From a virus (Duplodnaviria; Heunggongvirae; Uroviricota; Caudoviricetes): a DNA stretch of 18,378 nucleotides. Location: the IMG/VR virus record IMGVR_UViG_3300029190_000051. One strand, given 5' to 3'. The translations under genes were made by a program, and so were the position numbers. Under the pieces are notes generated by a model. The model was not told where the DNA came from and made no database searches. It was given only the letters and a program-made list of their open reading frames with translations. Shown here in pieces: positions 1,396 to 18,378 of this stretch (the first letter of the stretch is position 1; each line of letters begins with the position of its first letter).

Positions 1396-1397
1396 TG

Positions 1398-2003: not shown

Positions 2004-2015
2004 TCAGAGGGGCCG

Positions 2016-2330: not shown

Positions 2331-2333
2331 AAA

Positions 2334-2367: not shown

Positions 2368-2474
2368 AACCATTCAATTTTTTCTCTAAATCACATTAAA
2401 AGATTCTTCACCTTCGCTGCTTCAGAATACATTTCAACGATAACGAAGTGAGCGGTAATTAAGGTACAGCCTAT

Positions 2475-2930: not shown

Positions 2931-3124
2931 AATACATCTACAACGGCCCAGCAAGCGGCGTCACCCTTGCCGATGGACAAGAAATCTTATTGTGGCCGAA
3001 CAGTGAAATTGATCTGCCAGAAGACAACGAGTGGGTCATGACCATGATTGCCCGCAATCATCTGACTCCTGTCATCACTCAGGAAGAACAAAATAACGTA
3101 GAGGAAATTGTACATGGCAGCTAA
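2927..3124 (+). CDS. Small phage tail-associated protein (Mu gp38-like position)
   Basis: 65-aa ORF translationally coupled to its neighbours, directly upstream of the sheath gene. Assigned by position only. Confidence 0.3.
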   Translation: MKYIYNGPASGVTLADGQEILLWPNSEIDLPEDNEWVMTMIARNHLTPVITQEEQNNVEEIVHGS

Positions 3125-5062: not shown

Positions 5063-5112
5063 GTTATTCGGGGCTACGGCCCCGAACTTTGCAAAATAAA
5101 TAAGGACACAAA

Positions 5113-5430
5113 ATGAAAGAACATTATATCTTGCAGTTTCCATTTACGTCGGCAGCAGGAAATAATATCGACACGCTGCAATTACGTCGCCTGAAAGTAA
5201 AAGATATGCGCAACGCCCGCCGGATCAGCGAAAAGCCAGAAGAGTGGGATGAACCGCTGATGGCGGCGATGACCGGACTGGTGCCAGAAGATTTAGCCGA
5301 AATGGATTTGCTGGATTACCAGGCATTGCAGAAACGATTTCAATCCATGCTTACCGTGGTTACAGAATCCTCCCCTGCTATGGCAGGCAATGGCGCTACT
5401 GGCGAGATGGTTTCGCTTTCCGCCCAGTGA
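5113..5430 (+). CDS. Tail assembly chaperone (P2 gpE / Mu gp41-like position)
   Basis: 105-aa acidic protein located between the tube and tape-measure genes, the canonical chaperone position. An overlapping +1 frame stays open to 5518. Confidence 0.55.
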   Translation: MKEHYILQFPFTSAAGNNIDTLQLRRLKVKDMRNARRISEKPEEWDEPLMAAMTGLVPEDLAEMDLLDYQALQKRFQSMLTVVTESSPAMAGNGATGEMVSLSAQ

Positions 5431-5504
5431 GATAGACGCCCTTACCGTCGATGACTTTAGCAACTGGCTGGATGAAGCCAGCGCCCAAATAAAAATCGAA
5501 TATG

Positions 5505-5529
5505 ACTCGCAGACCTGATGTCTGCGAGT
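5505..5529. other. Perfect 10-bp stem-loop in the chaperone to tape-measure spacer
   Basis: ACTCGCAGAC ctgat GTCTGCGAGT. It is not followed by a U-tract. The stop codon of the +1-frame extension (TGA 5516-5518) lies in the loop. Confidence 0.45.
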
Positions 5530-5619
5530 TTCCCAAGCCCGTCAGGTTTATTTCTTCCCTGCCCCTTTTTTTAGAAAAATAACCAGCGGGCCATTATCAA
5601 TATTTAAAGAGAAACAATT

Positions 5620-7995
5620 TTGGCCAACGATATTATTACCCAGCTTCAGGCGCGTAATGAGACGTTGACGCAGGCAATAGCCCGTTACGGCTCACTCAAC
5701 GCCAGAACATTGTTAACTCTCTCTACTCAGCAGGCGACAGTTATCAAACTAACGCAGCAGCTTGCCGATTCCGCTCTCCGCCTGGAGGAAAATAGCCGCA
5801 GCCGCGCTAATCTGATGGAGAAAACCCAAACATTTGCCGGGCAATTTAGCAAAGTATTCAATGTTGAAGCCCCCGACTGGAAGTTGCCGTATGAGTTTCA
5901 GGACAACATGGTCAATATGGCGACCAAAGGTGGGATGAATGCTACAACCCGCGAGACGCTCAGCCTTAATCTGCGCGACTGGAGCATGGATTTTAACCAG
6001 CAGCAGACCACCTTACAGAACGCAGCCCAAACGCTGATCGAAGGCAATTTGTCGTCGATGCAGGATCTCAACCGTTATATGCCGGAGATCGCCAAAGCTG
6101 CCACCGCCACGCGCGAAAGTGCTGAAACGTGGGCGAATGCCGCGCTCGCGACTCATGATCGACTGAATATTGCCCCGGAAAATTTCCACGCCGCGCAAAA
6201 CATGATGTACGGCATTAGCAAAAGCGGTGGGCCTGCCATTGCTGAACAAACGCAGTGGATAGAGAAATTTGCAGGTAAAACCGGCGCTCAGGGTCTGGAA
6301 GGTATGGCTGAACTGACTGCCGCCATGCAGATCGCAATGAAAAATGGGGCCAGCGCCAGTGCGGCGGCGGAGAATTTTGACCACTTTCTGCAAACCACCT
6401 TTTCGAAAAAAACCGATAGCTGGTTCGCCAGCCAGGGCGTCGATCTGCAAGGCTCTCTGCTTGAACATCAGCAAAACGGTATGGGTGTTAGCGAAGCCAT
6501 GACTCATATCGTACAAATGCAGCTTGAGAAGATGAACCCGGCGATCCTCGACACCTTCAAACGTACTATGCAGATTGAAGATTTATCTGCTCGCAGCAAT
6601 GCGCTGCAATCGATGGTGTCGCAATTTAATCTGGGCGAAATGTTCGGCGATGTGCAAACGGTGGAATTCCTGGCACCTATGCTGGCGAATATGGAGGAAT
6701 ATCGCCAGTTAAAAGCCTCTGCCATGCAAGCCACCAGCAAGAATCTGATTAACGCTGACTTTTCTGCGCAAATGGCCTCGCCCATTGAACAGACTAAAGC
6801 GTTACAGCTGGCATTAAATGATTTATGGCTCAGCATTGGTTTGCAGCTTATGCCGGCGATTGGCGAGCTGGCACAAAGCCTTACGACGGTTATTCGCCAG
6901 TTCAGCGCCTGGCTACGCGAACATCCGGCGCTGGTGCAAAACATTGCGAAAATCGTCGGGGCGGTTTGGCTGTTTAACGGCGCGCTGAATGTTTTAAAGC
7001 TGGGCGCGAACCTCATCACCTCGCCGTTTATTCGTCTGGTCGATATCTTCCTGAAAGTCAAGGCAAGTCTGGCGCTCACAGGCGGGGCAAGTAAGATGCT
7101 ATCAGCGGTTAAGTCATTGGGTGGCGGCGCAAAATGGCTAATGCAACTGCTTGGTCGTGGCCTGATTGGCGCACTGAAACAGGTAGGTCAGACCGTCTTC
7201 TGGTTGGGTAGGGTTTTATTGATGAATCCCATTGGTCTGGTCATCACTGCGATTGCGGGCGCTGCTTATCTGATTTGTCGCAACTGGGAGCCTATCTCCA
7301 GGTTCTTTTCGACCATCTGGCAACGTATCACCACGGCCTTTGACGGCGGCATTGCAGGAATTTGTCGGTTGATTCTCGACTGGTCACCGCTGGAGTTGTT
7401 CTATAGCGCCTTTTCCAGTGTGATGAATTGGTTTGGTGTCGAGATGCCTGCAAGTTTTAGCGAGTTCGGCAGCAATCTTCTGGGCAGTCTGGTTGACGGC
7501 ATAATGAATGCCTTCCCCGCTCTGAAAGGCATTATTGATCAGGTAAAAAACGCCATCCCAGACTGGCTAAAAACCACGATGGGTATTAGTACAGAAGGAT
7601 CGGCTACAGCTATTACAAGCACGACTAATACCGCATCCGTCTCCCCCGCGACCGTTGTTCCAGGCGTTGCCGGTGCGATTTTAACACCGCCGGTGGGCAA
7701 ACAACTCGCGCCATCCGGCAAAACGGCTACGCCGTCATCGGCGCCAGCGGCAAAAAATACAGCCGCCAAACCCGTATCTGCCTCTTTACCTGGTAAATCC
7801 GTAACCAAACCGGCGACGCTACCCTCCCGTTCCTCAGGAAAAGTCCAGGTAAATTTTTCGCCACAAATTACCGTGCAGGGTAACGGACAAAACACCACTA
7901 AAGAGATTCAGAACGTGTTGACGATGAGTAAACGCGAACTGGAAAGAATGATTAACGATGTAATGGCGCAGCAGCAGCGCCGGGGGTATGCCTGA
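5620..7995 (+). CDS. Tail tape measure protein
   Basis: 791 aa, the largest ORF, downstream of the chaperone. It has hydrophobic segments in the C-terminal third and a Ser/Thr/Pro/Ala-rich low-complexity tail. It starts at a TTG (5620) after AAAGAGAAA; the first in-frame ATG is about 65 codons in. Confidence 0.85.
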   Translation: MANDIITQLQARNETLTQAIARYGSLNARTLLTLSTQQATVIKLTQQLADSALRLEENSRSRANLMEKTQTFAGQFSKVFNVEAPDWKLPYEFQDNMVNMATKGGMNATTRETLSLNLRDWSMDFNQQQTTLQNAAQTLIEGNLSSMQDLNRYMPEIAKAATATRESAETWANAALATHDRLNIAPENFHAAQNMMYGISKSGGPAIAEQTQWIEKFAGKTGAQGLEGMAELTAAMQIAMKNGASASAAAENFDHFLQTTFSKKTDSWFASQGVDLQGSLLEHQQNGMGVSEAMTHIVQMQLEKMNPAILDTFKRTMQIEDLSARSNALQSMVSQFNLGEMFGDVQTVEFLAPMLANMEEYRQLKASAMQATSKNLINADFSAQMASPIEQTKALQLALNDLWLSIGLQLMPAIGELAQSLTTVIRQFSAWLREHPALVQNIAKIVGAVWLFNGALNVLKLGANLITSPFIRLVDIFLKVKASLALTGGASKMLSAVKSLGGGAKWLMQLLGRGLIGALKQVGQTVFWLGRVLLMNPIGLVITAIAGAAYLICRNWEPISRFFSTIWQRITTAFDGGIAGICRLILDWSPLELFYSAFSSVMNWFGVEMPASFSEFGSNLLGSLVDGIMNAFPALKGIIDQVKNAIPDWLKTTMGISTEGSATAITSTTNTASVSPATVVPGVAGAILTPPVGKQLAPSGKTATPSSAPAAKNTAAKPVSASLPGKSVTKPATLPSRSSGKVQVNFSPQITVQGNGQNTTKEIQNVLTMSKRELERMINDVMAQQQRRGYA

Positions 7996-8948
7996 TGTAT
8001 GCCGTTTTAGGAGAGATTGAATTTAAGGTTGTCACATTCTGGGACGGCTTTAAAAGCACAATGGGCGTGGATTACGCCACACATGCCCGTATAGAAGGCA
8101 AACCCGGCGTGCAGTTTATTGGCGATAAGCTGGATATGCTGGCGCTGGAATTTTCCCTGCACAGCCAGTTTTGCCAGCCCACAACAGAGCTGAACCGACT
8201 GCGTGAAGCCATGCTTGCTCACAAGGCGATGGCACTGGTATTTGGCAATGGCGATTATCGCGGCTGGTTTGTGATTACGGAGCTAACCGCCACCCACCAG
8301 CACACCGATCCCTGGGGCAATGTGATTGCCCAAAACGGAACGATGTCGCTCCAGGAGTACACCGGCGATCCTAAAAATCCACTTTTACCTCCGGCGATTA
8401 CCACCCAGGAGCCCAACATCGAGGAAAAGGCGAGCGATTTTCCCGACAAGGTGGAGTCCTGGTTTGATCAGATATTAAACGCCATCGAAGAAGGTATGCG
8501 TAAGGCCAAAGAGATGCTGGATGAACTGACACAAGCCATTGAAGATATTAAAAAAACGGTGGCAAAAGTGAAAGCAATGATTAAAGAGGCCAAAGCGTTA
8601 AAAGAAAAGTGTGAAAAGATAATTACGTCATTGAAAAAGACAATCGACGCCATCGAAACCCTGTTTAAACAGCCAATGGATCTGCAAACGCTGGCAGGAC
8701 TCCCAAAAGCGTTGTCGGCGCAGATTAAAACTTTACTGGGTAACATGCCAGGTATCCGGGACTGCGCCAATGACGCCAGTACACTGGTTGACCATGCTCA
8801 GGCGCTTTTCGACGACATTACCAGCGACATCGCCGAAGCGACGTTTGATAAAGCCGCAACGTTGGTTGATCAGGCACGAACAACGGTACAACAAACCACT
8901 CCCACAGTGAGCCAGCTTGCTGCCGCGACCATTACGAGGATCTGGTGA
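7995..8948 (+). CDS. Tail protein, P2 gpU-like / Mu gp43 N-terminal-like, with a C-terminal coiled-coil extension
   Basis: 317 aa. The N-terminal roughly 125 aa (MYAVLGEIEFKVVTF...GDKLDMLALEFSLH...) resemble gpU-type proteins in pattern and position. The C-terminal roughly 190 aa are Ala/Lys/Glu/Leu-rich and predicted helical. The start overlaps the tape-measure stop (ATGA-type coupling). Confidence 0.55.
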   Translation: MYAVLGEIEFKVVTFWDGFKSTMGVDYATHARIEGKPGVQFIGDKLDMLALEFSLHSQFCQPTTELNRLREAMLAHKAMALVFGNGDYRGWFVITELTATHQHTDPWGNVIAQNGTMSLQEYTGDPKNPLLPPAITTQEPNIEEKASDFPDKVESWFDQILNAIEEGMRKAKEMLDELTQAIEDIKKTVAKVKAMIKEAKALKEKCEKIITSLKKTIDAIETLFKQPMDLQTLAGLPKALSAQIKTLLGNMPGIRDCANDASTLVDHAQALFDDITSDIAEATFDKAATLVDQARTTVQQTTPTVSQLAAATITRIW

Positions 8949-9157
8949 TGCGATACCTTGAACATATCACCACCGACGGCGAACGCTGGGATAATCTGGC
9001 ATGGCATTACTACGGTGATGCGCTGGCTTATGAACGCATAATCGCCGCCAATCCACATGTAGCCATTTACCCGGTACTGCCTTCCGGTATTCAGCTCATT
9101 ATTCCGGTCATTTCCGTCAATAAAACCTTATCGGAGATCCCACCATGGCTGAGATAA
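8945..9157 (+). CDS. Tail protein X (P2 gpX-like, LysM-like fold)
   Basis: 70 aa with the pattern G..WD.LAWHYYGDA...ERIIAANPHV....LPSGIQLIIP, which fits the recalled gpX signature (YYG...ANP...LP.G..L). Confidence 0.7.
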   Translation: MMRYLEHITTDGERWDNLAWHYYGDALAYERIIAANPHVAIYPVLPSGIQLIIPVISVNKTLSEIPPWLR

Positions 9158-10185
9158 GCGTAACTGGTGGCGTCTTTGCCACACTCACGCCCATTTTTAC
9201 CCTCTGGTATGGGCATAAAGATATCACTTATGACATCACACCCTATGTCACCAGCATCAGTTACCACGACAGCATCAAAAACGAGTCGGATACCATCGCA
9301 ATTACACTGGATGACACAGATGGACGCTGGATAAAAGAGTGGTATCCCGGCAAAGGCGATACGCTGGCGCTGCATATGGGTTATCAGGGAGAGAAGCTGC
9401 TCGATTGTGGTCAGTATATTATTGATAAAATTGATATTTCAGCGCCACCTTCTACGGTAAATATTGATGGCATCGCCACTTCCGTCAATCAGGCGCTGCG
9501 CACCCGTAACAGCCAGGGTTTTGAAGAAACGACGCTTTCGGCTATCGCCAGCCGTATCGCACAAACTCACGGCCTAAAGCTGGTGGGCAAAATCGAGCCT
9601 CTGACAATTGACCGGGTGACACAGTACGGCGAAACCGATGTTGGATTTCTCAAACGTCTGGCCAGTGAATATGGTTATGCCGTAAAAGTGACGACGAAAG
9701 AGCTGATTTTTTCACATTTACCCACGCTGCGCTGCCTGGCACCTGTGAAAAAGATCGACCGCAAAGACGTTTCGCATTTCACCTTCAAAGATACCATTAA
9801 CCGTATCTACAAAAACGCCACCGTACAGCATCAAAATAGTAAGAAAAAAGAACTGGTTATCTACACTCACAACAGCCAGCAAAAACCGTCTGCCCGTGGA
9901 GTCGGCACCAGTGCCGACACGCTAAAACTGAACAGTCGGGCGACGGACGTTGGCGCAGCACAGGCAAAAGCCAACGCTGCACTCGACAGCCACAACGAAT
10001 ATCAGCAAACCGGAACGCTCACAATGATGGGCTGCCCGGAACTGACGGCGGGCAATAAAATCGAGCTAACCGATTTTGGCGTGCTTTCCGGTCAATGGCT
10101 AATTGATAAATCGACTCACAGTTTTGTGCGCAGCGGCTATACCACTGAAATCGACGTGTCGCGCGGGCCAGCGACCAGCCAGTAA
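9145..10185 (+). CDS. Baseplate hub protein (P2 gpD-like / Mu gp44-like)
   Basis: 346 aa, in the conserved U-X-D position after the tape measure. Size and order support the call. Confidence 0.7.
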   Translation: MAEISVTGGVFATLTPIFTLWYGHKDITYDITPYVTSISYHDSIKNESDTIAITLDDTDGRWIKEWYPGKGDTLALHMGYQGEKLLDCGQYIIDKIDISAPPSTVNIDGIATSVNQALRTRNSQGFEETTLSAIASRIAQTHGLKLVGKIEPLTIDRVTQYGETDVGFLKRLASEYGYAVKVTTKELIFSHLPTLRCLAPVKKIDRKDVSHFTFKDTINRIYKNATVQHQNSKKKELVIYTHNSQQKPSARGVGTSADTLKLNSRATDVGAAQAKANAALDSHNEYQQTGTLTMMGCPELTAGNKIELTDFGVLSGQWLIDKSTHSFVRSGYTTEIDVSRGPATSQ

Positions 10186-10194
10186 GGAGGAAAT

Positions 10195-10896
10195 ATGAAA
10201 GGAGTAACCCGTCAAACGGGGATTATCAGCGATATTGACGAAACCAGCGTTCGGGTGCGGGTCACGCTCCCGGAGTGTGACAATCTGAAGAGCAACTGGC
10301 TTGCGGTACTTCAACGCAATTCCCAGGACAATAAAGACTACTGGCTACCGGATATGGGCGAGCAAGTGGAAGTTCTGCTGGACAATAACGGTGAAGATGG
10401 CGTGGTGCTGGGCGCAGTTTATTCTACGGTTGACACCGCGCCTGTAGCCTCGCGCGACAAACGTTACGTCCAGTTTTCTGATGGCGCAGCGTTTGAATAT
10501 GACCGCAGCACGCACCAGCTGACGATCAACGGCGGTATCGAGAAAATCGTGATTGAGGTTATCAACGGTACCTGCCTGACATCGCCCAACGTTGAGATTA
10601 AAGCCCAACAGGTCACCGTGACTTCCGATACCGTCGATGTTAAAGCGACCGATGTCAGCATCGACGCCACTAAGGTCGAGGTTAAAGCAGCAGCAGTGAC
10701 GGTAGATGCGCCCATGAGCACCTTTACTGGCAACGTCACGGTAATGAAAAAACTCACCTGGCTTGGCGGGATGGCAGGAAGTGGAGGCATCGGTAACGCA
10801 GCCACGATAACCGGCAATGTCAACGTGATCGGCAACGTTCAGGCCAGCGGCGCATTGCAGGACAGCGGTGGCAACTCCAACCACCATTCACACTGA
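10195..10896 (+). CDS. Baseplate central spike (P2 gpV-like / gp5-VgrG-like) with a His-rich C-terminal tip
   Basis: 233 aa. The N-terminal region is OB-fold-like, followed by repetitive beta-strand-like V/T/D-rich segments (VTVTSDTVDVKATDVSIDATKVEVKAAAVTVDA). The C-terminus is ...GGNSNHHSH, consistent with an apex metal-binding His motif. Confidence 0.75.
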   Translation: MKGVTRQTGIISDIDETSVRVRVTLPECDNLKSNWLAVLQRNSQDNKDYWLPDMGEQVEVLLDNNGEDGVVLGAVYSTVDTAPVASRDKRYVQFSDGAAFEYDRSTHQLTINGGIEKIVIEVINGTCLTSPNVEIKAQQVTVTSDTVDVKATDVSIDATKVEVKAAAVTVDAPMSTFTGNVTVMKKLTWLGGMAGSGGIGNAATITGNVNVIGNVQASGALQDSGGNSNHHSH

Positions 10897-10902
10897 CGTT
10901 TA

Positions 10903-10931
10903 ACCCGCCTGATGGCGGGTTTTCTCTTTTT
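10903..10931 (+). terminator. Rho-independent terminator-like hairpin between the spike and wedge genes
   Basis: ACCCGCC tgat GGCGGGT followed by TTTCTCTTTTT. Confidence 0.5.
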
Positions 10932-10994
10932 AATCAATCAGTTTTCTAAATCGCTTTAATATCTCCACAGCCCGTTCAGGGCGAAAATACCCTC

Positions 10995-11354
10995 ATGAAC
11001 ACAAAAACACGCCCCTCAACGCTGCACTGGCAACCGGCCTTGCTGCGGCCTGAAGAATACGTCTGCGGACTGGATGATATTCACCAGGCAATACACATCA
11101 TTCTGCGTACACCGCGCGGCAGTGATCCCCACAGACCGCTGTTTGGCAGCAACTTGTGGCACTACATCGATTACCCCATCGAGCGGGCTATCCCGCATGT
11201 GGTACGGGAGTCGGTGGAAGCCATCCGCCAGTGGGAACCGCGCTGTCGGTTGCTGAAGGTGACACCAGTAATCGACGGCGAACATCTGACGTTACGTGTG
11301 CAATGGCGCGCCGCTGACGGCGTTATCAACTCAACGGAGGTGTTATGGCGATAG
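10995..11354 (+). CDS. Baseplate wedge protein (P2 gpW-like / T4 gp25-like)
   Basis: 119 aa with IHIILRTPRGSDPHRPLFGSNLWHYID...IRQWEPRCRL, which fits the recalled gpW/gp25 pattern (ILRTP.GSR...YGS.L...WEPR). Confidence 0.8.
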   Translation: MNTKTRPSTLHWQPALLRPEEYVCGLDDIHQAIHIILRTPRGSDPHRPLFGSNLWHYIDYPIERAIPHVVRESVEAIRQWEPRCRLLKVTPVIDGEHLTLRVQWRAADGVINSTEVLWR

Positions 11355-12460
11355 CCGAACCCAATTTTATTGACCGCGATCCTGCGCAAATTACCAGTGA
11401 GATGATTGCGCAATACGAAGATGCCAGTGGTAAAAAACTCTATCCGGCACAGGCTGAGCGGTTGCTCATCGACCTGTTTGCCTATCGTGAAAACCTTGTA
11501 CGCATCGCCATTCAGGAAGCGGCGAAACAAAACCTGGTCGCGTATTCCCGCGCGCCAATGCTGGATTATTTAGGAGAGCTGGTGGGCGTTCACCGTTTGC
11601 CTGCGCAGCCAGCAAAAACGACGTTGCAGTTTTCGGTCGTCAGTGCGTATACCAGCAATATCCTGATTCCCCAGGGGACGCGGGCCAGTGCCTCTGATAG
11701 CGTGATGTTCGCCACCGATGAAGATGTTCTGCTTCCGGCCTGGAGTTTGCATATCGCCGTTCCTGCCACCAGCCTCGCAGCAGGTGAACAGGGTAACGGC
11801 TGGCAGCCTGCACAAATTAGCGCTCTGGTCGACAGGATTGGTCATTATGACATCAACGTAACCAACCTGACTGCGTCAACGGGCGGCTGCGGTGAAGAGA
11901 GCGATGACGCATTGCGCCAGCGTATCCAACTGGCACCAGAAAGCTTTAGTAATGCGGGCAGCTATGGCGCATACCGCTTTCATACGCTTTCTGTTAGCCA
12001 GTCGATTATTGACGTTGCAGTACTGGGGCCGGACGAGGGATTGCCAGAAGGCTGCGTGGAGATCTACCCGCTAACCCTGAATGGACTGCCAGGAATAGAA
12101 CTGCTCGCGCAAATCGAACAGGAGGTTAGCAAGGAGAAAAAACGTCCGCTGACCGACAAAGTGAGTGCGAAATGCGCTCTTCGAGTGCCGTATGAGATCC
12201 GTGCGCAGCTAACGCTGTTTACCACCGCCGATCAGGAGACAACGCTGGCTGCGGCGCGTAAAGCGATTAGCCTCTGGACGCAACAGCGGCAGAAACATCT
12301 GGGGCAAGACATTGTGCCAAACCAGATAATCAAAGTGTTACAGGTCGATGGCGTCTATGACGTTGCGCTGAACTTGCCTACAAAACGTATTTTGCAGGCG
12401 CATGAATGGGCGGAATGCACTGCAATAGACGTCACGATCGCCGGAGTTAGCGATGGATAA
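11345..12460 (+). CDS. Baseplate wedge protein (P2 gpJ-like)
   Basis: 371 aa, overlapping the W-like gene by 10 bp and the I-like gene by 8 bp. Position and size fit the W-J-I baseplate triplet. Confidence 0.75.
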   Translation: MAIAEPNFIDRDPAQITSEMIAQYEDASGKKLYPAQAERLLIDLFAYRENLVRIAIQEAAKQNLVAYSRAPMLDYLGELVGVHRLPAQPAKTTLQFSVVSAYTSNILIPQGTRASASDSVMFATDEDVLLPAWSLHIAVPATSLAAGEQGNGWQPAQISALVDRIGHYDINVTNLTASTGGCGEESDDALRQRIQLAPESFSNAGSYGAYRFHTLSVSQSIIDVAVLGPDEGLPEGCVEIYPLTLNGLPGIELLAQIEQEVSKEKKRPLTDKVSAKCALRVPYEIRAQLTLFTTADQETTLAAARKAISLWTQQRQKHLGQDIVPNQIIKVLQVDGVYDVALNLPTKRILQAHEWAECTAIDVTIAGVSDG

Positions 12461-13169
12461 ATTGCTACCACCGCCGCCGCTTGCCAGCGATGAGCGTTTT
12501 TCGATTCTGGCAAATATCGCCGCCGAGCGTTTTGCCCAACTCGATCTGACGGCGTTGATGGTTTATCTGGTCGACCTGGTTGATGCTTCGGCATTACCAG
12601 CCCTTGCAGAACAATTTCACGTTCAGGGGTTGGAAGGTTGGTTATTTACCACCGATGAGCGGGAGAAACGCGAGTTAATTAAACAAGCCATTGAACTGCA
12701 TAAATATAAAGGAACAATTTGGGCGGTGCGGCGGGTGCTGGAAATACTCTCCTTACCCGGAACTATTTCAGAATGGTTTGAATATGGGGGAAGGGCTTAC
12801 TTTTTTAAGGTTGATATTACACTAGAGGAAAAAGGATTAAATGAAGATGAATTCAATGCACTTATCACATTAATTCATGAATATAAAAATGTCCGTTCAA
12901 AGCTGGAAAGCATTGTTATTTGGCTTATTAATCGAAGCCCAATACCAGTTATTGGCAGTGCCATGCAAGGAGGGGAAGTCATTACAGTATTGCCTCCTGT
13001 TGCAGAAAGCCTCAGCCAGTCATCTGGAATATTTTTAGCGACAGGTTATTGTGTGGAGGAATATATTCAACTACTACCTTATCAACCCGATCGACTAACA
13101 CAATCCCAACCGATGAAGGTCGGCACAGGATACTGGAGCACCGAAATTATGTCTGTATATCCGGAGTAA
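12453..13169 (+). CDS. Baseplate protein (P2 gpI-like) with a C-terminal extension
   Basis: 238 aa. [13 protein letters not shown]...[17 protein letters not shown]...EW.EY...FKVDITLEE...GEVITVLP parallels the recalled P2 gpI sequence. About 55 residues follow the gpI-like end and finish with a similar ...IMSVYPE. Confidence 0.7.
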
Positions 13170-13171
13170 TA

Positions 13172-14782
13172 ATGGCAAGTGAATTTTTTACAATATTAAC
13201 TGCTGCAGGCAAAGCCAAAATTGCCTCAGCACTGGCCGAGCAAAAACAGATCCGTCTGCAAACTATGGTAGTTGGCGACGGTAATGGTAAATATATCGAA
13301 CCGACAGAAAGTCAGACCAAAGTAGTCCATGAGGTCTGGCGTGGTCAGCTCAATACATTAAAAATTGCGCCAGATAATCCGGCCTGGGTTATCGCAGAAG
13401 CGATTATTCCCGAACAAGTCGGAGGCTGGTATGTACGCGAAGTTGGGTTACTGGATACCGACGGCACGATGGTCGCTATTGGTAAATTCCCGGAAACCTA
13501 TAAGCCACGATTACCTGCGGGGGCCAGTAAGCAAATCGTTATACGCGCGGTCATGGAAGTCACCAATGCAGATGCGGTGACGCTTTTGATCGACCCTTCA
13601 GTCGTTGTGGCAACCAGGGAATATGTCGATGACGCGTTGAAAACACATCAGCAATCACGAAATCATCCTGATGCGACGCTGACACAAAAAGGTTTTACGC
13701 AGCTGAGTAATGCGACTAATAGCGATGATGAAACCAAAGCGGCCACGCCAAAAGCGGTAAAAACGGCATATGACCTGGCAAATAGCAAAGCTGCCACCAG
13801 TCATAATCATGCCTGGAATCAGATTACTGGTATCCCTGATGGTACACTGACGCAGAAAGGAGTCGTTAAGCTTAACAATACAACAAATAGCACCAGTACG
13901 ACGGAAGCTGCAACACCAAGTGCGGTTAAGGCAGCGATGGATAAGGCTATTGCTGCGGCACCGTCCAGCCATACCCATGCCTGGGGGCAAATAACAGGTA
14001 TCCCCGACGGTACGCTGACGCAAAAAGGGGTCGTGAAACTTAATAATGCGACCAACAGCACCAGTACGACGGAAGCTGCAACGCCGAACGCTGTTAAGGC
14101 AGCGATGGATAAGGCTATTGCTGCGGAAAGCTGTCCTGTTGGGATGCCTATTCCCTGGCCATCTGATTCTGTACCTTCAGGCTACGCTCTGATGACAGGT
14201 CAGACATTTAATAAAACCTCCTATCCCAAACTGGCAATTGCATATCCATCTGGTGTTATTCCTGATATGCGCGGATGGATAATTAAAGGAAAACCATCCA
14301 GTGGGCGCGCTATATTATCTACTGAACTGGATGGAGTTAAATCACATAACCATACGGGCAGTATTTCGAGTACGGACTTAGGGACGAAATCTGTATCATC
14401 AATAGATCTAGGAACAAAGAACACTCAGTCATTTAATCATGGGATAAAAACAACAAATACAGCAGGCGCGCATAGCCATGATAGTGGTTCTGGCGAAAGT
14501 AGTGAGGGGGGAAAACCTCGGTATGGTACTCGTGATAACACAACAAATAATTTTGGTTCTGGTGAATCAGATCATGACAATTACAAATTTAACACATCCA
14601 CGGATGGAGAGCATGCACATTCAGTTAATGTTGGCTCACACTCTCACTCTGTTATTTTAGGGTCACATAATCATTCAATTGCCCTTGGTTCCCATAATCA
14701 CTCCCTAACCATTAATAATACCGGCAACACCGAAAACACCGTCAAAAATATCGCATTCAACTATATTGTGAGGCTAGCATGA
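13172..14782 (+). CDS. Tail fibre protein (P2 gpH-like N-terminal anchor, tandem fibre repeats, His-motif C-terminal receptor-binding region)
   Basis: Start at the ATG 13172 (GGAG 7 nt upstream), not the track start at 13049. The N-terminus ([28 protein letters not shown]...[34 protein letters not shown]...[34 protein letters not shown]) closely parallels the recalled P2 gpH N-terminus. Three fibre-type repeats follow, and the C-terminus carries [27 protein letters not shown]. Confidence 0.85.
13664..14127 (+). repeat. In-frame tandem repeats inside the tail fibre gene (about 3 copies of about 165 bp / 55 aa)
   Basis: Copies at about 13664-13798 (degenerate), 13799-13966 and 13967-14127. The last two share long identical stretches (AGCACCAGTACGACGGAAGCTGCAAC and GTTAAGGCAGCGATGGATAAGGCTATTGCTGCGG). 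Protein unit: [48 protein letters not shown]. Confidence 0.75.
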
Positions 14783-15486
14783 ATACTTTTACCTTTTCCG
14801 ATGAAGCTCAAATACTAACTGTATATAATTTTTCACAAGACTCCCAAGAATATATCGGTGAGTCTGATGCATACATTGCACCTAATACAGGCTTGCCAAA
14901 TTATTGCACATTAATTTCACCTCCCGAAAAGGTTCCTGGTTTTACTCCAGTGTGGGAGAATGAAACATGGAGACTTATTGAAGATCATCGAGGCCAAACT
15001 GTTTATAACAAAGTTGATGGTAGCCAGCTTATTATTCAAGAATTGGGCCAATTACCTGAAAATGTAACAGTCATTTCCCCGACAGGTTCTTTTGAACGTT
15101 GGGATGGTGAAAAATGGCAACCATCTATAACCGATGCTAAAGAGGCGAAATACTCTGCAATCAAAAATCAACGCGATGCCATCACAACCGATTACATCAT
15201 CATCAACAACCATCACTTCCACAGTGATACAAATAGCCGTATCCAACAGCTTTCACTCACAAAAATGGGAGCGGAGAAAAAAATTCCGCCAGGTTTAATG
15301 TGGAAAACTAAAAATAATGGTCTGATTGAGTTAACCAACGAAATCGCTGCCCAGTTTGAATCGGTCACCATGGATCACGATATGCGCTTGTTCGCAAACG
15401 CCCAGCGTCATATCGCGGCGGTGGAAGCACTGGACGATATTCAGGCGGTGCTCGACTACGATTATTCAACAGGCTGGCAACCATGA
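14779..15486 (+). CDS. Tail fibre assembly protein (lambda Tfa-like chaperone)
   Basis: 235 aa. The N-terminal half ([102 protein letters not shown]) parallels the recalled lambda Tfa N-terminus almost motif for motif. The start overlaps the fibre stop (ATGA). Confidence 0.8.
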
Positions 15487-15938
15487 GTAAAACCACTGTC
15501 TGGCTCGCTTGTTATAAGGGCCGAACAGAGCACCGTGGTATTGCCCGACTGGCTGACTGGCTTACCCGTAAAATCACACGCGGTCATTATTCCCACTGTG
15601 AATTAGCCGTTAAGCATGGTGAAAAGAGATACCTTTGTTACTCTGCATCACTGCGCGATCGCGGTGTACGCGGAAAGATAATGCCATTGCCAGCGGATAA
15701 GTGGGATATGCTGCCGCTCCAGGCTAGCCTTCAGGATGTGGAAACTTTTTTCCGTAAACATGATGGCAAAAAATATGACTGGCGCGGAGCATTAGGAATT
15801 ATTACCGGTAATAAAGAACAGCGCGATCGCCTGTTTTGCAGTGAATTTTGTGCTGAATTTCTGCAACTGAAGGAAAGCTGGCGCTATTCTCCAAACCACT
15901 TGTACGCTTTAGTCAGCAGCTGGCAATACCAGCAATAA
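15483..15938 (+). CDS. Hypothetical cargo protein, last gene of the tail operon; possible permuted papain-like (His then Cys) hydrolase
   Basis: 151 aa, translationally coupled to tfa (ATGA). It has His-containing GHYSHCELAV upstream of a Cys-containing LFCSEFCAEF segment, which resembles the C-[ST]-E-F catalytic-Cys motif of YiiX/YaeF-type permuted papain-fold proteins. The functional call is weak. Confidence 0.4.
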   Translation: MSKTTVWLACYKGRTEHRGIARLADWLTRKITRGHYSHCELAVKHGEKRYLCYSASLRDRGVRGKIMPLPADKWDMLPLQASLQDVETFFRKHDGKKYDWRGALGIITGNKEQRDRLFCSEFCAEFLQLKESWRYSPNHLYALVSSWQYQQ

Positions 15939-15943
15939 ATCAC

Positions 15944-15962
15944 GCCGGGCTTTATGCCCGGC
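15944..15962. terminator. GC-rich hairpin shared by the convergent tail operon and nucleotidyltransferase operon
   Basis: GCCGGGC ttta(t) GCCCGGC lies 6 nt after the cargo-gene stop and overlaps the last codons of the minus-strand gene. Confidence 0.5.
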
Positions 15963-16752
15963 ACATTACCGTTTGATACAGCAAATTATCTAGCTCCCGA
16001 ACATCTCCATCTCGACTGTCCGGTAAAATCGGTGGAATTTCCCCGCGCGCCAGTTCCGCGCGAATAAACGCATGCAATAAAGGACGGCGCAGTCCATATT
16101 CCGCTTCACTCGCACGCTGTTTACGCTCCAGCAATTCATCTATTTCTGCGCGTAAGGCCGCATCCAACTCACTTCCCGCCAGTAACTCGGCAAAGCGCAT
16201 TGGCGGCACGCCTTTTCCCGCTTCAACCCAGCGTACGGCCAGCAGCGGGCGCAGCACGTAAAAGTATTTTTTCAGTCGAACTTCGTCGCCCTGTAAATAA
16301 CCGCGAAAGTTTTTCTGCGCCATCGAATAGTAATGCCAACGCGCGCGCAACGAAGAAAACCACATTGGGACCATTGCCTTAAGCGCCGTTATCGTTTCTT
16401 CATCTTGTTGATAGACCACCGGAGAATCCAGCCATTCTATCAGCGTCGGATTCGCGCCTTTCAATAATCCCAGCGCCTTACGCCACTCCCAACCGGAAAC
16501 ATCTAACTCGTCGTCGATAGGCAGTTCGATAACATCGCGCGGTGACTCTACACGCAGATACCATTCTAGCGGATGGACATACAAAAACCGTACATCGTAG
16601 TCGCTATCGGGCGAGGCAAATCCCCAGCCGCGGCTGCCTGATTCACAGGCGTACAGCACTTTCACGCCATAGCGACGTTCTATTTCTTTTAACTGCTGCG
16701 ATACCCGTTCGCGCATCGCAGCACTGACTCCATTTAATGGCATTTGACTCAT
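15952..16752 (-). CDS. Pol-beta-superfamily nucleotidyltransferase-fold protein
   Basis: 266 aa. VLYACESGSRGWGFASPDSDYDVRFLYV contains the G-S...D-x-D signature of minimal nucleotidyltransferases, with a further acidic cluster (IDDELDVSGWEW). The start overlaps the upstream gene's stop (ATGA on the minus strand). Confidence 0.65.
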   Translation of the reverse strand: MSQMPLNGVSAAMRERVSQQLKEIERRYGVKVLYACESGSRGWGFASPDSDYDVRFLYVHPLEWYLRVESPRDVIELPIDDELDVSGWEWRKALGLLKGANPTLIEWLDSPVVYQQDEETITALKAMVPMWFSSLRARWHYYSMAQKNFRGYLQGDEVRLKKYFYVLRPLLAVRWVEAGKGVPPMRFAELLAGSELDAALRAEIDELLERKQRASEAEYGLRRPLLHAFIRAELARGEIPPILPDSRDGDVRELDNLLYQTVMCRA

Positions 16753-17876
16753 CCTTTGATATTCACTAACCCGTGCAGAACCTGATCCAGACCACCAAAT
16801 ACAGAGATGTTATCGATCCGCTCAGCCACTCTCTCCAGCGTTTCCAGTTCTTTTAAGCGTAACGCCACCGGGTTGTTTTCCATGACTTTAGCGGTATTGA
16901 GTAACGAACGCGTCGCTGCCGTTTCTTCACGCCGACGAATCACATTCGCCTGCGCAGATTTCTCTGCCTCAACCAGCTGCGCGAGGATATTTTTCATATC
17001 ACCAGGCAGGACGATATCTTTCACCCCTAATGAGGCAATCTCCATACCAAATGGCAACATGCGCGATTTCACCTGTTCGCTGACAACGTCATCAATGACC
17101 TGTTTATCTTCCAGCAACTCATCCAGCGTACGCGTACCTACCGCTTCACGCAGTGCAAATTGCAATTCCCGATACAAATGATCAATCGGCTTCGTTAACT
17201 GACTAAATGCCAATAACACGTCGCTGTAGCGCCAGTTGGCGGCGAGGTTAATCCGCAGATTGACCTTATCTTTCGTTAAGATTTCTTGCCCGCTGACTTC
17301 CAGTACCTGCAAGCGGGTGTCAACCACTTCAGCTTCAACCAGATGGTTAATTTTCCAGTACGCAGTCAGTCCCGGCGGTAACAGCGCCTGCGTTTTACCA
17401 TCGATTTTCAGTACACCTACGTGCCAGGCCGGAACCTGCACCGTCAGTATCGCATCGCGGCCTTTAACTGCCCCTTTGCGCCGTGGCTGCAATACCGCAT
17501 TCATCACCTCCGTTTGAACCTGGACTTGCTGCGTACTCATCCGCACCAGCGTCAAATCATCCTCTACACGCCAGTACAAACGACGCGTTGATGGCGGCAG
17601 GATCTCCAGCAAAATACCGTCCATATACAACGCCCCGGCTTCAGTCTCCGACAAGTCGGCCACCACGCAATATCTTTCCACCCACTCTGGCTGAAAGCGG
17701 CGCAAATAATCCGCCAGCACGTCGGGAACTTCGCTGCCATCGAGCGTAATCAGCAAGACTTCTGGCGTATTTAACCAGGGTAAAAGATGCTCGCCTGCAT
17801 GCAGCACTTTGTAGTAATCGCCATTTCTGGAAAGTAATGCCAGCTGATCTTTTCTTACGCTTATTTTCTTAATCAT
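16749..17876 (-). CDS. Soluble SPFH/band-7-like domain protein with an unassigned N-terminal domain of about 150 aa
   Basis: 375 aa. The C-terminal roughly 220 aa have stomatin/HflC-like character (LEVSGQEILTKDKVNLRINLAANWRYSD..., ...AEKSAQANVIRRREE..., ...LRLKELETLERVAERIDNISVFGG). No N-terminal hydrophobic membrane anchor is visible. AGGAA lies 6 nt upstream of the ATG. Confidence 0.5.
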   Translation of the reverse strand: MIKKISVRKDQLALLSRNGDYYKVLHAGEHLLPWLNTPEVLLITLDGSEVPDVLADYLRRFQPEWVERYCVVADLSETEAGALYMDGILLEILPPSTRRLYWRVEDDLTLVRMSTQQVQVQTEVMNAVLQPRRKGAVKGRDAILTVQVPAWHVGVLKIDGKTQALLPPGLTAYWKINHLVEAEVVDTRLQVLEVSGQEILTKDKVNLRINLAANWRYSDVLLAFSQLTKPIDHLYRELQFALREAVGTRTLDELLEDKQVIDDVVSEQVKSRMLPFGMEIASLGVKDIVLPGDMKNILAQLVEAEKSAQANVIRRREETAATRSLLNTAKVMENNPVALRLKELETLERVAERIDNISVFGGLDQVLHGLVNIKG

Positions 17877-18378
17877 TATCTATTCCTTGCTTAATAGCCG
17901 TCGCGGAAGCAGATACGAAGCGACAGGGGAATTCCCTTTTGCCTGTTACCCGGCGTCTTTATCGGCGACGTTATCGGGGATCGCTGACTGCGCAATCCCT
18001 CATTTTTTATTTAATAAGTTACAACCAGTATTCATTTCAGGAATGAATTCGGGAATCGAACCCGTAATTGGCGTCAAAGGCTGACGGAACACGCCCGGAA
18101 AACAGCCTGGCCGTTCCTGGTGTGCCGACGGGGTTTAATCCCCTTTGAAATTCGGTATCAACGCAAAAGAGTTATTGCGAAAAGTGTGCCAAAAGTGAAA
18201 TAACACACTTAATATATTGAATAATAAAGATTTAATTAAATCAGATAACTTGCCGGATAATAATTTGCGTTAAATTTTTATCTGTATTTATCGCTAATTA
18301 TCGAAAGAGATAAATAGTTAAGAGAAGGCAAAATGAATATTATCAGTTCTGCTCGCAAACGAATTCCCGTACACTGAA

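What the first reader, a model, noticed from the sequence alone, without database searches (positions are those of the whole stretch)
14130..14782. Fibre C-terminal region with stacked His-x-His motifs and AT-rich mosaic composition: likely a swapped receptor-binding tip
The C-terminal roughly 210 residues contain many HxH motifs (SHNHTG, AHSHDS, EHAHSV) ending in three 9-residue repeats, GSHSHSVIL / GSHNHSIAL / GSHNHSLTI. That pattern recalls the metal-coordinating HxH repeats in the needle-like tips of T4-type long and short tail fibres. The DNA here looks clearly more AT-rich by eye than the N-terminal anchor region, suggesting the specificity domain was acquired separately. This region would determine which cells the particle kills.
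Basis: partly seen in the sequence, partly recalled or inferred. Interest (0 to 1): 0.55.

Follow-up and report, generated by a model that had tools for sequence, protein, structure and literature searches.

The report
T4 gp37-type tail-fibre tip, cassette-swapped
The end of this E. coli tail-fibre gene encodes a clear relative of phage T4's needle-shaped, iron-studded receptor-binding tip, and it travels with its folding chaperone as an exchangeable cassette; this is a correct but ordinary example of a well-known phage module.

Summary
Fibre residues 317-536 (nt 14120-14782) carry six HxH motifs, four of them in tandem 9-residue units (shuffle P about 1e-5). Third-position GC is 0.31 here against 0.45 upstream in the same gene.

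This region is a direct homologue of the T4 gp37 receptor-binding tip (PDB 2XGF, E 3e-66, about 55% identity). Six of T4's seven iron-ligand HxH motifs are kept, and five are invariant in 41 homologues.

The next gene's N-terminal domain is related to T4 gp38 and lambdoid Tfa, and it is equally AT-rich at third positions (GC3 0.25).

Comparative genomes show swapping at two scales:
- The gp37-type tip plus the chaperone N-domain combine with different anchors. Alternatively, a glycine-rich tip with its own chaperone domain takes their place.
- A 296-nt patch (14376-14671) covering the needle's distal stem and apex is replaced between otherwise 98-100% identical alleles.

The gene sits in a headless Mu/P2-type tail cluster between lysC and yjbD, present in 196 of 5426 E. 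coli genomes and syntenic with Salmonella STM4198-4219.

More than 1300 homologues of the tip exist, so this is a new member of a known kind. Trimerisation, iron binding, the receptor and killing activity remain untested.

The parts
13172..14782 (+). Tail-fibre gene (536 aa), in the P2 gpH / Mu gpS position after the gpJ and gpI genes
   Evidence: Pfam PF12571 (E 2e-59), PF03406 x3 (E 1e-51) and PF07484 (E 1e-10). PHROG 295 tail fiber, E 8e-224.
13172..13618 (+). N-terminal baseplate anchor (aa 1-149, Phage_tail_fib PF12571)
   Evidence: GC3 0.447. 99% identical in L002 but only 64-65% identical to the anchors of the L003, L004 and Salmonella fibres.
13634..14119 (+). Shaft made of Phage_fiber_2 repeats (aa 155-316). 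It includes a 168-nt tandem duplication (13797-14126, 83-84% identical); each copy ends in an HxH (SHNHAW at aa 211, SHTHAW at aa 267).
   Evidence: Residues 155-214 match Mu fibre S (PDB 5YVQ/8JU3, E 2e-06).
14126..14341 (+). Collar domain, first part (aa 319-390; equivalent to T4 gp37 D10 residues 811-881)
   Evidence: Pfam Collar PF07484 at aa 324-370. Alignments to 2XGF. T4 domain limits from PMC6957217. Lowest entropy in the family alignment.
14342..14479 (+). Outward strand of the needle stem (aa 391-436). It has HxH at 14345-14353 (aa 392-394) and 14471-14479 (aa 434-436), three 10-residue xDLGTKxxxx-like units, and a lone His423.
   Evidence: H392/394 are invariant and H434/436 are at least 90% conserved in 41 homologues.
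14480..14593 (+). Hypervariable apex (aa 437-474; positional equivalent of the T4 'tip subdomain' 932-959 that contacts LPS and OmpC)
   Evidence: Column entropy 2.0-2.8 bits with indels, against 0.2-0.9 in the flanks. No similarity to the T4 apex. T4 tip function from PMC6957217.
14594..14728 (+). Return strand of the needle stem (aa 475-519). It has four 9-residue units, each with an HxH: 14612-14620, 14639-14647, 14666-14674 and 14693-14701.
   Evidence: All eight His are invariant in 41 homologues. They align to T4 H966/968, 980/982, 989/991 and 998/1000.
14729..14779 (+). C-terminal strand returning to the collar (aa 520-536, [17 protein letters not shown]; equivalent to T4 1010-1026)
   Evidence: Identical to the T4 gp37 C-terminus over these 17 residues.
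14376..14671 (+). Allelic replacement patch (aa 402-500, distal stem plus apex). It is about 50% divergent from the L002 allele while the flanks are about 99-100% identical.
   Evidence: This exact patch is in 83 of 5426 complete E. coli genomes, all at least 99% identical, with no intermediate alleles.
14779..15159 (+). Chaperone gene, N-terminal domain (aa 1-127), gp38/Tfa-like. Its start codon overlaps the fibre stop codon.
   Evidence: BLASTP against T4 gp38: 25% identity, E 2e-12. Against lambdoid phage Chlobot Tfa: 44% identity, E 1e-40. Pfam Caudo_TAP and PHROG 105. GC3 0.25. It co-varies with tip type.
15160..15486 (+). Chaperone gene, C-terminal DUF4376 domain, constant across all variants of the cluster
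   Evidence: Pfam PF14301. 95-100% identical in L002, L003 and L004 whatever the tip type. Recombination breakpoint at 15157-15164. GC3 0.53.
12453..13169 (+). gpI-like baseplate protein. The part from the 12961 breakpoint to its end (aa ~170-238) is AT3-rich and swaps together with the fibre anchor.
   Evidence: Pfam Tail_P2_I. Breakpoint at 12961 against L003/L004. C-terminal identity 51-53% against 91-92% for the N-terminal part. GC3 0.2-0.3.
15483..15938 (+). Conserved 151-aa ORF that closes the tail operon; function unknown
   Evidence: Present in every cluster variant and in Salmonella as STM4198. No Pfam or PADLOC hit. PHROG 1128. dN/dS 0.10-0.17.
15941..15965 (-). Terminator-like hairpin (10 pairs, 7 G-C) between the convergent tail operon and the nucleotidyltransferase gene

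Best explanation
Nucleotides about 14120-14782 encode the receptor-binding tip of a short P2/Mu-type tail fibre, and that tip belongs to the T4 gp37 / lambdoid Stf family.

Inferred by homology to the T4 structure:
- Three chains form a collar (aa 319-390 plus 520-536).
- A thin needle projects from the collar. Each chain runs outward (391-436), forms the apex (437-474) and returns (475-519).
- Each of the six HxH motifs contributes two His per chain. Three chains therefore give six ligands for one octahedral metal ion, iron in T4, on the threefold axis. That makes a ladder of six predicted sites that register and stiffen the trimer.
- The hypervariable apex loops would contact the surface receptor, which is LPS or a porin in T4 and unknown here.
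- Folding would need the protein encoded immediately downstream, whose N-terminal domain is gp38/Tfa-like.

Shown directly:
- The tip plus the chaperone N-domain form an AT3-rich cassette (about 14120-15160) that recombines independently of the fibre anchor.
- Inside it, a 296-nt distal-stem and apex patch is exchanged between near-identical alleles, with the conserved collar and C-terminal HxH repeats flanking it.

The gene lies in a headless contractile-tail cluster, so the tip probably sets the target range of a tailocin-like particle. This last step is inferred.
For: Homology:
- PDB 2XGF, E 3.1e-66, over aa 317-536.
- tblastn to T4 g37, 55% identity over 99% of the query. 449 phage records match, spanning Tequatrovirus gp37, lambdoid side tail fibres and Peduovirus fibres.
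- 1345 database proteins at E<=1e-10.
- Pfam Collar domain.
- Foldseek on the AF2 model ranks 2xgf_A first, E 5.7e-14.

HxH motifs:
- T4 has exactly seven HxH in residues 883-1000, matching the seven irons reported for it (PMC6957217; HxH-iron geometry in PMC6116203).
- The window keeps six. Five are invariant and one is at least 90% conserved in 41 homologues. 31 of the 41 homologues have six.

Apex: hypervariable at aa 437-476.

Chaperone: homologous to gp38 and Tfa.

Mosaic structure:
- GC3 is 0.31 for the tip and 0.25 for the chaperone N-domain, against 0.45 upstream in the fibre, 0.53 in the chaperone C-domain and 0.57 in gpJ.
- The same contrast appears in Salmonella (0.61 falling to 0.29), and T4's tip has GC3 0.33.
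- Breakpoints against other alleles lie at 12961 and 15157-15164, and at about 14376 and 14671.
- The Salmonella fibre combines the L003-type anchor (96% identity) with a gp37-type tip (58%) and a window-type chaperone N-domain (66%). L003 and L004 have an unrelated glycine-rich tip with an unrelated chaperone N-domain.

Maintenance: dN/dS is 0.02-0.17 for J, I, fibre aa 1-400, the chaperone and orf151.

Context: the island from lysC to yjbD holds tail, lysis and Mor genes only.
Against: - Trimer formation, metal binding and the axial His ladder were not observed. Only a monomer model could be made, and it is weak (mean pLDDT 64, pTM 0.30, TM 0.32 to 2XGF).
- One T4 iron site has no counterpart here, and the two alignments disagree on which. 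MAFFT says H915/917, phmmer says H929/931.
- The apex has no detectable similarity to any characterised tip, so the receptor cannot be named.
- T4 gp37 also needs gp57A, and no equivalent is encoded in the island.
- Some strains carry a frameshifted tape-measure gene or a disrupted fibre gene. No paper describing particles from this cluster was found.
- The glycine-rich alternative cassettes are also AT3-rich. Low GC3 therefore marks the exchangeable slot in general, not a T4-like donor specifically.
Confidence: 0.85

Rival explanations
1. The tip is correctly identified, but the cluster is a decaying prophage remnant. No particle is made, and the tip has no current role in killing or adsorption.
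For: There are no head genes. The tape-measure gene is frameshifted in strain ST648 and the fibre is annotated as a pseudogene in strain 20. No literature on particles from this locus was found.
Against: Purifying selection is strong: dN/dS is 0.02-0.17 within E. coli and 0.07 for J between E. coli and Salmonella at dS 1.16. All tail ORFs in the window are intact. The cluster has its own holin, transglycosylase and Mor activator. Identical fibre alleles occur in about 100 genomes. Cassette turnover is what one would expect if specificity is under selection.
Confidence: 0.2
2. The low GC is a by-product of the Ser/Asn/His/Thr-rich amino-acid composition, or chance, and not a sign of separate ancestry.
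For: The tip is rich in residues with AT-rich codons. The total GC difference is modest, 0.42 against 0.49.
Against: GC at second positions is not lower (0.495 against 0.42-0.51). The drop is in GC3 (0.314 against 0.446, Fisher P 0.002). The compositional edges coincide with the start of gp37 homology (about 14120) and with a mapped recombination breakpoint (15157-15164). The same module is AT3-rich in Salmonella, where the rest of the fibre has GC3 0.61.
Confidence: 0.05
3. The region is a T4 gp12-type short-tail-fibre head with a single zinc site, not a gp37-type multi-iron needle.
For: It shares the Collar domain. A short tail fibre (PDB 9CUY) matches aa 318-398 at E 1e-07.
Against: Similarity to short fibres stops at the collar. 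The gp37 match is full length and about 59 orders of magnitude stronger. gp12 structures score E>0.1 in Foldseek. The region has six HxH motifs, not one.
Confidence: 0.02
4. Fibre variation arises from a site-specific inversion switch, as in the Mu G segment or P1 C segment, and not from allelic cassette replacement.
For: The tail cluster has Mu-like gene order and a Mor regulator. Mu switches between S/U and S'/U' by inversion (general knowledge).
Against: There is no invertase gene in the island and no alternative fibre C-terminus on the opposite strand. The only inverted repeat is a 19-nt pair at 84% complementarity. Variants differ between genomes, not by orientation.
Confidence: 0.02

Closest known systems
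Phage T4 gp37 long-tail-fibre receptor-binding tip (PDB 2XGF; domains D10 collar and D11 needle) with chaperone gp38
   Same: Homology covers the whole tip: E 3e-66, about 55% identity. The collar, the outward and return stem strands, six of the seven HxH iron motifs and the last 17 residues (identical) are all shared. A gp38-related gene follows.
   Different: Here the tip caps a 536-aa P2/Mu-type fibre that attaches directly to a simple baseplate. In T4 it caps a 1026-aa distal half-fibre. One distal outward-strand HxH is missing. The apex is about 10 residues longer and unrelated in sequence. The chaperone has an extra DUF4376 C-terminal domain. No gp57A is encoded nearby.
Lambdoid side tail fibre Stf with Tfa (closest sequenced phage: Escherichia phage Chlobot fibre and 'tail fiber assembly' gene)
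   Same: This is the closest phage relative of the tip (62% identity) and of the chaperone N-domain (44%, E 1e-40). The pattern of six HxH motifs and 'SFNH-G' is the same.
   Different: The Stf tip sits on a siphovirus side fibre of more than 1100 aa. Tfa lacks the DUF4376 domain. DNA identity is only about 69-75% over parts of the tip and megablast found nothing, so the tip was not recently transferred from any sequenced phage.
Salmonella STM4200 / STM4199 (fibre and chaperone of the lysC-linked tail cluster STM4198-4219)
   Same: The cluster is orthologous and sits at the same chromosomal site. It has a gp37-type tip (58% identity) and the same two-domain chaperone (72% overall).
   Different: The anchor differs (64% identity). 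There is one shaft repeat fewer and extra HxH units in the return strand. A gtrABC operon is inserted between V and W.
R-type pyocin fibre (PA0620, R1/R2 structures) and its chaperone
   Same: It is a baseplate fibre of a headless contractile particle. Its trimeric shaft has an HxH-iron site, and specificity lies in the C-terminal part with a cognate downstream chaperone (PMC6116203).
   Different: The pyocin fibre has one iron site and a lectin-fold foot. It did not appear among the PDB sequence matches of the fibre at E<=1.
T4 gp12 short tail fibre
   Same: The Collar domain PF07484 and use of HxH metal ligands.
   Different: There is no similarity beyond the collar.

Membership tests
T4 gp37 / Stf-type receptor-binding tip (2XGF fold) | Significant sequence homology across the whole collar-plus-needle unit | tested here: met
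   phmmer E 3.1e-66, query 317-536 against chain 25-242. tblastn to T4, 54.9% identity over 99% of the query.
T4 gp37 / Stf-type receptor-binding tip (2XGF fold) | Collar domain (Pfam PF07484) at the base | tested here: met
   E 1.2e-10, 41.6 bits against a cutoff of 24, aa 324-370.
T4 gp37 / Stf-type receptor-binding tip (2XGF fold) | HxH motifs at the positions of the iron-ligand histidines | tested here: met
   Six of T4's seven are aligned. Five are invariant and one is at least 90% conserved in 41 homologues. One T4 site is absent, and which one depends on the alignment.
T4 gp37 / Stf-type receptor-binding tip (2XGF fold) | Conserved C-terminal strand that returns into the collar | tested here: met
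   [17 protein letters not shown] is identical to T4 1010-1026.
T4 gp37 / Stf-type receptor-binding tip (2XGF fold) | Predicted 3D fold matches 2XGF | tested here: inconclusive
   2xgf_A is the only significant Foldseek hit (E 5.7e-14, prob 1.00). However, the monomer model is poor (pLDDT 64, TM 0.32, rmsd 17 A), as expected for an intertwined trimer.
T4 gp37 / Stf-type receptor-binding tip (2XGF fold) | Homotrimer with axial octahedral Fe(His)6 sites | not testable with these tools
   Only monomer prediction is offered. The property is known for T4 from PMC6957217 and PMC6116203.
T4 gp37 / Stf-type receptor-binding tip (2XGF fold) | Cognate gp38/Tfa-type chaperone gene immediately downstream | tested here: met
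   BLASTP against gp38 E 2e-12 and against Chlobot Tfa E 1e-40. Pfam Caudo_TAP. Co-variation with tip type. Chaperone activity itself was not tested.
T4 gp12 short-tail-fibre receptor-binding domain | Homology extending beyond the collar into the gp12 head domain | tested here: not met
   The short-fibre match covers aa 318-398 only. gp12 structures score E 0.1-4 in Foldseek.
P2 gpH / Mu gpS-type baseplate fibre | N-terminal Phage_tail_fib domain (PF12571) and gene position after the gpJ and gpI homologues | tested here: met
   PF12571 E 2.1e-59. Baseplate_J and Tail_P2_I lie upstream. RefSeq annotation agrees.
R-type tailocin (headless contractile-tail bacteriocin) | Complete contractile-tail gene set with no capsid, packaging, integration or replication genes | tested here: met
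   The island from lysC to yjbD holds Mor, holin, SLT, Gp37, sheath, tube, TAC, TMP, U, X, D, V, W, J, I, fibre, chaperone and orf151, plus a nucleotidyltransferase and a slipin, and nothing else.
R-type tailocin (headless contractile-tail bacteriocin) | Own lysis cassette and regulator | tested here: met
   Holin_2-3 E 1e-26, SLT transglycosylase E 9e-15, Mor activator E 7e-38. No spanin was identified by Pfam.
R-type tailocin (headless contractile-tail bacteriocin) | Particles are produced and kill related strains | not testable with these tools
   No experimental report was found.
Invertible fibre switch (Mu G / P1 C segment type) | Invertase gene and inverted repeats flanking alternative fibre ends | tested here: not met
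   No invertase in the island. The only inverted repeat is a 19-nt pair at 84% complementarity.

The most novel reading that the evidence does not exclude
The lysC-linked headless Mu/P2-type tail cluster is an anciently domesticated R-type tailocin, shared by about 3.6% of complete E. coli genomes and by Salmonella (STM4198-4219). Its killing spectrum would be retargeted by drawing gp37/Stf-type tip cassettes from the coliphage pool, down to apex-only patches flanked by the conserved HxH repeats. Enteric bacteria would then use the same receptor-binding currency as T-even and lambdoid phages for strain-to-strain warfare.
Probability: 0.4. Interest if true: 0.55.

Novelty: new member of a known kind. 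Interest (0 to 1): 0.3.

Why it matters
The finding itself matters little, because gp37/Stf-type tips with HxH iron ladders and Tfa-like chaperones are textbook phage modules with over a thousand homologues.

It does have practical value. The exact module borders (about 14120 and 15160 for the cassette; 14376-14671 for the apex patch) and natural alternative alleles on a near-identical backbone give a ready design for retargeting a possible E. coli tailocin. They also allow mapping of which apex residues choose the receptor.

The context could be the more interesting lead. A conserved, selectively maintained headless tail cluster sits at the same locus in E. coli and Salmonella, including strains of the multidrug-resistant ST648 lineage. 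It would matter if particle production is shown.

Tried and rejected
- Megablast of the fibre gene against 50,697 phage records found nothing. Relatives appeared only in protein or 'distant' mode, so the tip was not recently transferred from a sequenced phage.
- The primary structure paper for 2XGF (Bartual et al. 2010) could not be read by DOI or PMC id. Its content is cited second-hand through PMC6957217 and PMC6116203.
- The AF2 prediction could only be run as a monomer and gave pLDDT 64.
- Tandem Repeats Finder did not detect the 27-nt HxH units.
- Literature searches for a tailocin at this E. coli locus returned only unrelated systems. The ST131 'tailocin' paper (PMC9205054) describes a P2/pyocin-like prophage region characteristic of ST131 and does not mention lysC or yjbD, so I could not link it to this cluster.
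- PADLOC gave no hit for the nucleotidyltransferase, the slipin or orf151.
- An inversion switch was considered and rejected.
- Assigning the missing T4 HxH to a specific site was left open, because phmmer and MAFFT disagree.
Full report
**1. What is there**

The window runs from the 3' end of lysC to just before yjbD in E. coli. It matches about 100 complete genomes at 100% identity, for example strain ST648 (NZ_CP008697).

Everything between those two core genes is a phage-tail island. In order it holds:
- A Mor-family activator on the minus strand.
- A holin, an SLT transglycosylase and a small membrane protein.
- A Gp37-family protein, then sheath, tube, tail assembly chaperone and a 791-aa tape measure.
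- gpU, X, D, V, W, J and I homologues.
- The fibre (13172-14782), a DUF4376/Tfa-like gene (14779-15486) and a 151-aa ORF (15483-15938).
- A terminator-like hairpin at 15941-15965.
- On the opposite strand, an RlaP-family nucleotidyltransferase and a slipin.

There are no capsid, portal, terminase, integrase or replication genes.

**2. The observation**

Translation of 13172-14782 gives a 536-aa protein. The last 220 residues contain six HxH motifs, at aa 392, 434, 481, 490, 499 and 508. The last four sit in consecutive 9-residue units: [27 protein letters not shown] and LGSHNHSLT.

Twelve of the 14 His in this segment are in HxH. Shuffling the segment gives a mean of 0.82 HxH and reaches six at a frequency of 1e-5.

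GC is 0.42 in 14130-14782, against 0.487 for the anchor and 0.492 for the shaft repeats. The difference lies in third codon positions: GC3 0.314 against 0.446 (Fisher P 0.002). GC2 is not lower. Both parts of the observation are therefore real and are not explained by chance or by amino-acid content.

**3. What the region is**

Pfam divides the fibre into three parts:
- An N-terminal Phage_tail_fib anchor (aa 1-149).
- Three Phage_fiber_2 repeats.
- A Collar domain (aa 324-370).

A search of all PDB sequences puts T4 gp37's receptor-binding tip (2XGF) far ahead of everything else, at E 3.1e-66, with fibre 317-536 aligned to chain 25-242. The last 17 residues are identical to T4.

Short-tail-fibre matches stop at the collar (aa 318-398), and Mu fibre S matches only a shaft repeat. 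The AF2 monomer model is weak (pLDDT 64), but its only significant Foldseek match is 2xgf_A (E 5.7e-14). gp12 entries follow at E>0.1.

The tip module is very common:
- 449 phage records match it, including T-even gp37, lambdoid side tail fibres and P2-like fibres. The best is 62% identical.
- 1345 database proteins match at E<=1e-10.

**4. Mapping onto the T4 structure**

Islam et al. 2019 (PMC6957217) summarise the crystal structure as follows:
- D10 (811-881 plus 1010-1026) has the collar fold.
- D11 (882-1009) is an insertion made of a stem (882-931 and 960-1009) and a tip subdomain (932-959).
- Seven iron atoms lie along the needle. H929 and H931 are iron ligands, and alanine substitutions there are lethal.
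- The tip subdomain carries the LPS and OmpC contact residues.

Buth et al. 2018 (PMC6116203) describe the HxH site as three symmetry copies of two His forming an octahedral iron site, and cite 2XGF as having the same motif.

T4 gp37 has exactly seven HxH in this region, starting at 883, 915, 929, 966, 980, 989 and 998.

By alignment, the window residues correspond to:
- Collar: 319-390 and 520-536.
- Outward strand: 391-436.
- Apex: 437-474.
- Return strand: 475-519.

Window HxH 392, 481, 490, 499 and 508 align with T4 883, 966, 980, 989 and 998.

HxH 434 is ambiguous. MAFFT aligns it with T4 929, leaving a lone His423 opposite T4 915. phmmer aligns it with T4 915. Either way, one distal outward-strand site of T4 has no counterpart here.

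In an alignment of 41 homologues:
- The His pairs at 392, 481, 490, 499 and 508 are invariant, and 434/436 are at least 90% conserved.
- 31 of the 41 have six HxH, so the six-site form is the common one and T4's seven is the variant.
- Column entropy is 0.2-0.9 bits in the collar and stem, and 2.0-2.8 bits with indels at aa 437-476. The apex is therefore the hypervariable element.

**5. The chaperone**

The next gene starts 4 nt before the end of the fibre gene. Its first roughly 130 residues are homologous to T4 gp38 (25% identity, E 2e-12) and to a lambdoid Tfa (44%, E 1e-40). Its C-terminal half is DUF4376.

gp38 is required for gp37 folding (PMC6957217). From memory, the classic work is Hashemolhosseini et al. 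1996 on gp38 and the lambda helper protein Tfa, which is listed as ref. 17 of that paper.

**6. Mosaic structure and swapping**

*Composition.* Sliding GC3 shows an AT3-rich block from about 14130 to about 15140 (0.23-0.35). This is the tip plus the chaperone N-domain. The blocks on either side are richer: shaft repeats 0.40-0.60 and the DUF4376 domain 0.42-0.62. A second AT3-rich block lies at about 12750-13230, covering the gpI C-terminus and the start of the fibre.

*Cluster variants.* Across 5426 complete E. coli genomes the cluster is present in 196. Three comparisons are informative:

(a) L003 and L004.
- Breakpoints against the window lie at 12961, inside gpI, and at 15157-15164, in the middle of the chaperone gene.
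- Between them these loci carry a different anchor (64-65% identity), a glycine-rich C-terminal domain unrelated to gp37, and an unrelated chaperone N-domain.
- The DUF4376 half stays 95-97% identical.

(b) The Salmonella orthologue (STM4200-like).
- Its anchor is 96% identical to L003's, but it has a gp37-type tip (58% identity to the window) and a window-type chaperone N-domain (66%).
- Tip type and chaperone N-domain therefore travel together and assort independently of the anchor.

(c) L002 and L005.
- These are 98-100% identical to the window except for 14376-14671, where there are 149 differences in 296 nt.
- The flanks 14101-14375 and 14672-15160 have 0.4-1.0 differences per 100 nt.
- The patch covers the distal stem and apex (aa 402-500). 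The L002 allele lacks the AHSH motif and has five HxH.
- The window's patch occurs in 83 genomes, all at least 99% identical, with no intermediates.

*Comparison across hosts.* The gp37-type tip and the chaperone N-domain are AT3-rich wherever I checked:

| Source | GC3, rest of fibre | GC3, tip |
|---|---|---|
| Salmonella | 0.61 | 0.29 |
| Chlobot | 0.48 | 0.40 |
| T4 | 0.25 | 0.33 |

The alternative glycine-rich cassettes are also AT3-rich. Low GC3 therefore marks the exchangeable slot, not one particular donor.

No invertase or convincing inverted repeats exist. Variation is by allelic replacement, not by inversion.

**7. Is the system alive?**

Pairwise dN/dS between the window and L002:

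| Gene | dN/dS |
|---|---|
| J | 0.075 |
| I | 0.019 |
| Fibre aa 1-400 | 0.032 |
| Chaperone | 0.13 |
| orf151 | 0.17 |

For J between E. coli and Salmonella, dS is 1.16 and dN/dS is 0.07.

The Salmonella cluster (LT2 tags STM4198-4219) lies next to lysC and pgi, the same site as in E. coli. A gtrABC operon is inserted between V and W.

This points to long-term retention under purifying selection, not decay. Individual strains do carry frameshifts. No report of particles or killing from this locus was found.

**8. Mechanism, with shown and inferred steps separated**

Shown:
- Homology to the gp37 tip.
- Conservation of the HxH ligands.
- A hypervariable apex.
- A linked gp38/Tfa-like gene.
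- Compositional and recombinational module borders.
- Purifying selection.

Inferred from the T4 and pyocin structures:
- A homotrimer with six axial Fe(His)6 sites.
- An apex that binds a surface receptor.
- Chaperone-dependent folding.

Inferred from context:
- The particle is a headless contractile tail whose target range is set by this tip.

**9. Comparison with what is known, and verdict**

The region passes every sequence-level membership test for the gp37/Stf tip family. The tests that need a trimer or a metal measurement could not be run.

Horizontal sharing of this module among T-even, lambdoid, P2 and Mu-type fibres is classic knowledge. From memory, the key papers are Haggard-Ljungquist et al. 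1992 and Sandmeier 1994. The finding is therefore correct but ordinary, a new member of a known kind.

The nested apex-only patch and the conserved lysC-linked headless cluster are the parts worth following up.

Noticed in passing
window 169-18378 (whole island); L009 (Salmonella AFYI01000007 27000-50000): The whole window is a headless Mu/P2-type contractile-tail island between lysC and yjbD. It is present in 196 of 5426 complete E. coli genomes. A syntenic cluster sits beside lysC-pgi in Salmonella (LT2 tags STM4198-4219). For gpJ between the two genera, dS is 1.16 and dN/dS is 0.07. It looks like an old, maintained tailocin-like locus, and I found no paper on it.
   Followed up: partly
window 12960-13169 (gpI C-terminus) and 13172-13230: The last roughly 70 residues of the gpI-like protein are AT3-rich (GC3 0.2-0.3). 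They are replaced together with the fibre anchor in the L003 and L004 variants (breakpoint 12961; gpI is 238 aa against 210 aa). This suggests a co-evolving adaptor-anchor interface.
   Followed up: partly
window 14779-15486: The chaperone is bipartite. The N-terminal gp38/Tfa-like half changes with the tip, while the C-terminal DUF4376 half is constant across all cluster variants. From memory, published Tfa proteins are described the other way round, with a conserved N-domain and a variable fibre-binding C-domain. This arrangement may deserve a look.
   Followed up: partly
window 15483-15938: A conserved 151-aa ORF closes the tail operon in every variant and in Salmonella (STM4198). It has no Pfam or PADLOC hit. 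Its PHROG 1128 label, 'enoyl-CoA hydratase-like', looks like an annotation artefact. dN/dS is 0.10-0.17, so it is maintained.
   Followed up: partly
window 15952-17876 (minus strand): A convergent gene pair lies at the island's edge: an RlaP-family nucleotidyltransferase (PF10127, E 4e-96) and a slipin/SPFH protein. It is conserved in all E. coli variants but is not at that position in the Salmonella locus. There is no PADLOC match. It may be cargo or a defence pair.
   Followed up: partly
window 13797-14126: A 168-nt (56-aa) tandem duplication lies in the shaft, with copies 83-84% identical. Each copy ends in an HxH (SHNHAW, SHTHAW). These could form further metal sites like the single HxH-iron site of R-pyocin shafts. 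Other variants have three such units and the Salmonella fibre has one.
   Followed up: no
L002 5828-7408 (E. coli STEFF_1 fibre): The alternative apex allele lacks the AHSH motif, so it has five HxH where the window has six. The number of predicted metal sites therefore varies between natural alleles on the same backbone. Homologues range from 5 to 9.
   Followed up: partly
L003 3244-4989 and L004 3244-5070: The alternative fibre cassette ends in a glycine-rich domain (poly-G run, C-terminal ...GFVKISW) with its own chaperone N-domain. It was not characterised here.
   Followed up: no
L001 1481-6996 (E. coli ST648, NZ_CP008697): In this strain an ISEcp1-blaCTX-M-14-IS903B unit has split lysC immediately next to the tail island. 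The strain's tape-measure gene is annotated as frameshifted, whereas the window's is intact.
   Followed up: no
L008 130-2965 / L009 586-3421: In Salmonella a gtrABC O-antigen glucosylation operon is inserted between the V and W genes of the orthologous tail cluster. The Salmonella fibre gene STM4200 is used as a qPCR marker for S. Typhimurium, with 94.6% exclusivity across other serovars (PMC6201931). That fits high allelic turnover of this fibre slot.
   Followed up: partly
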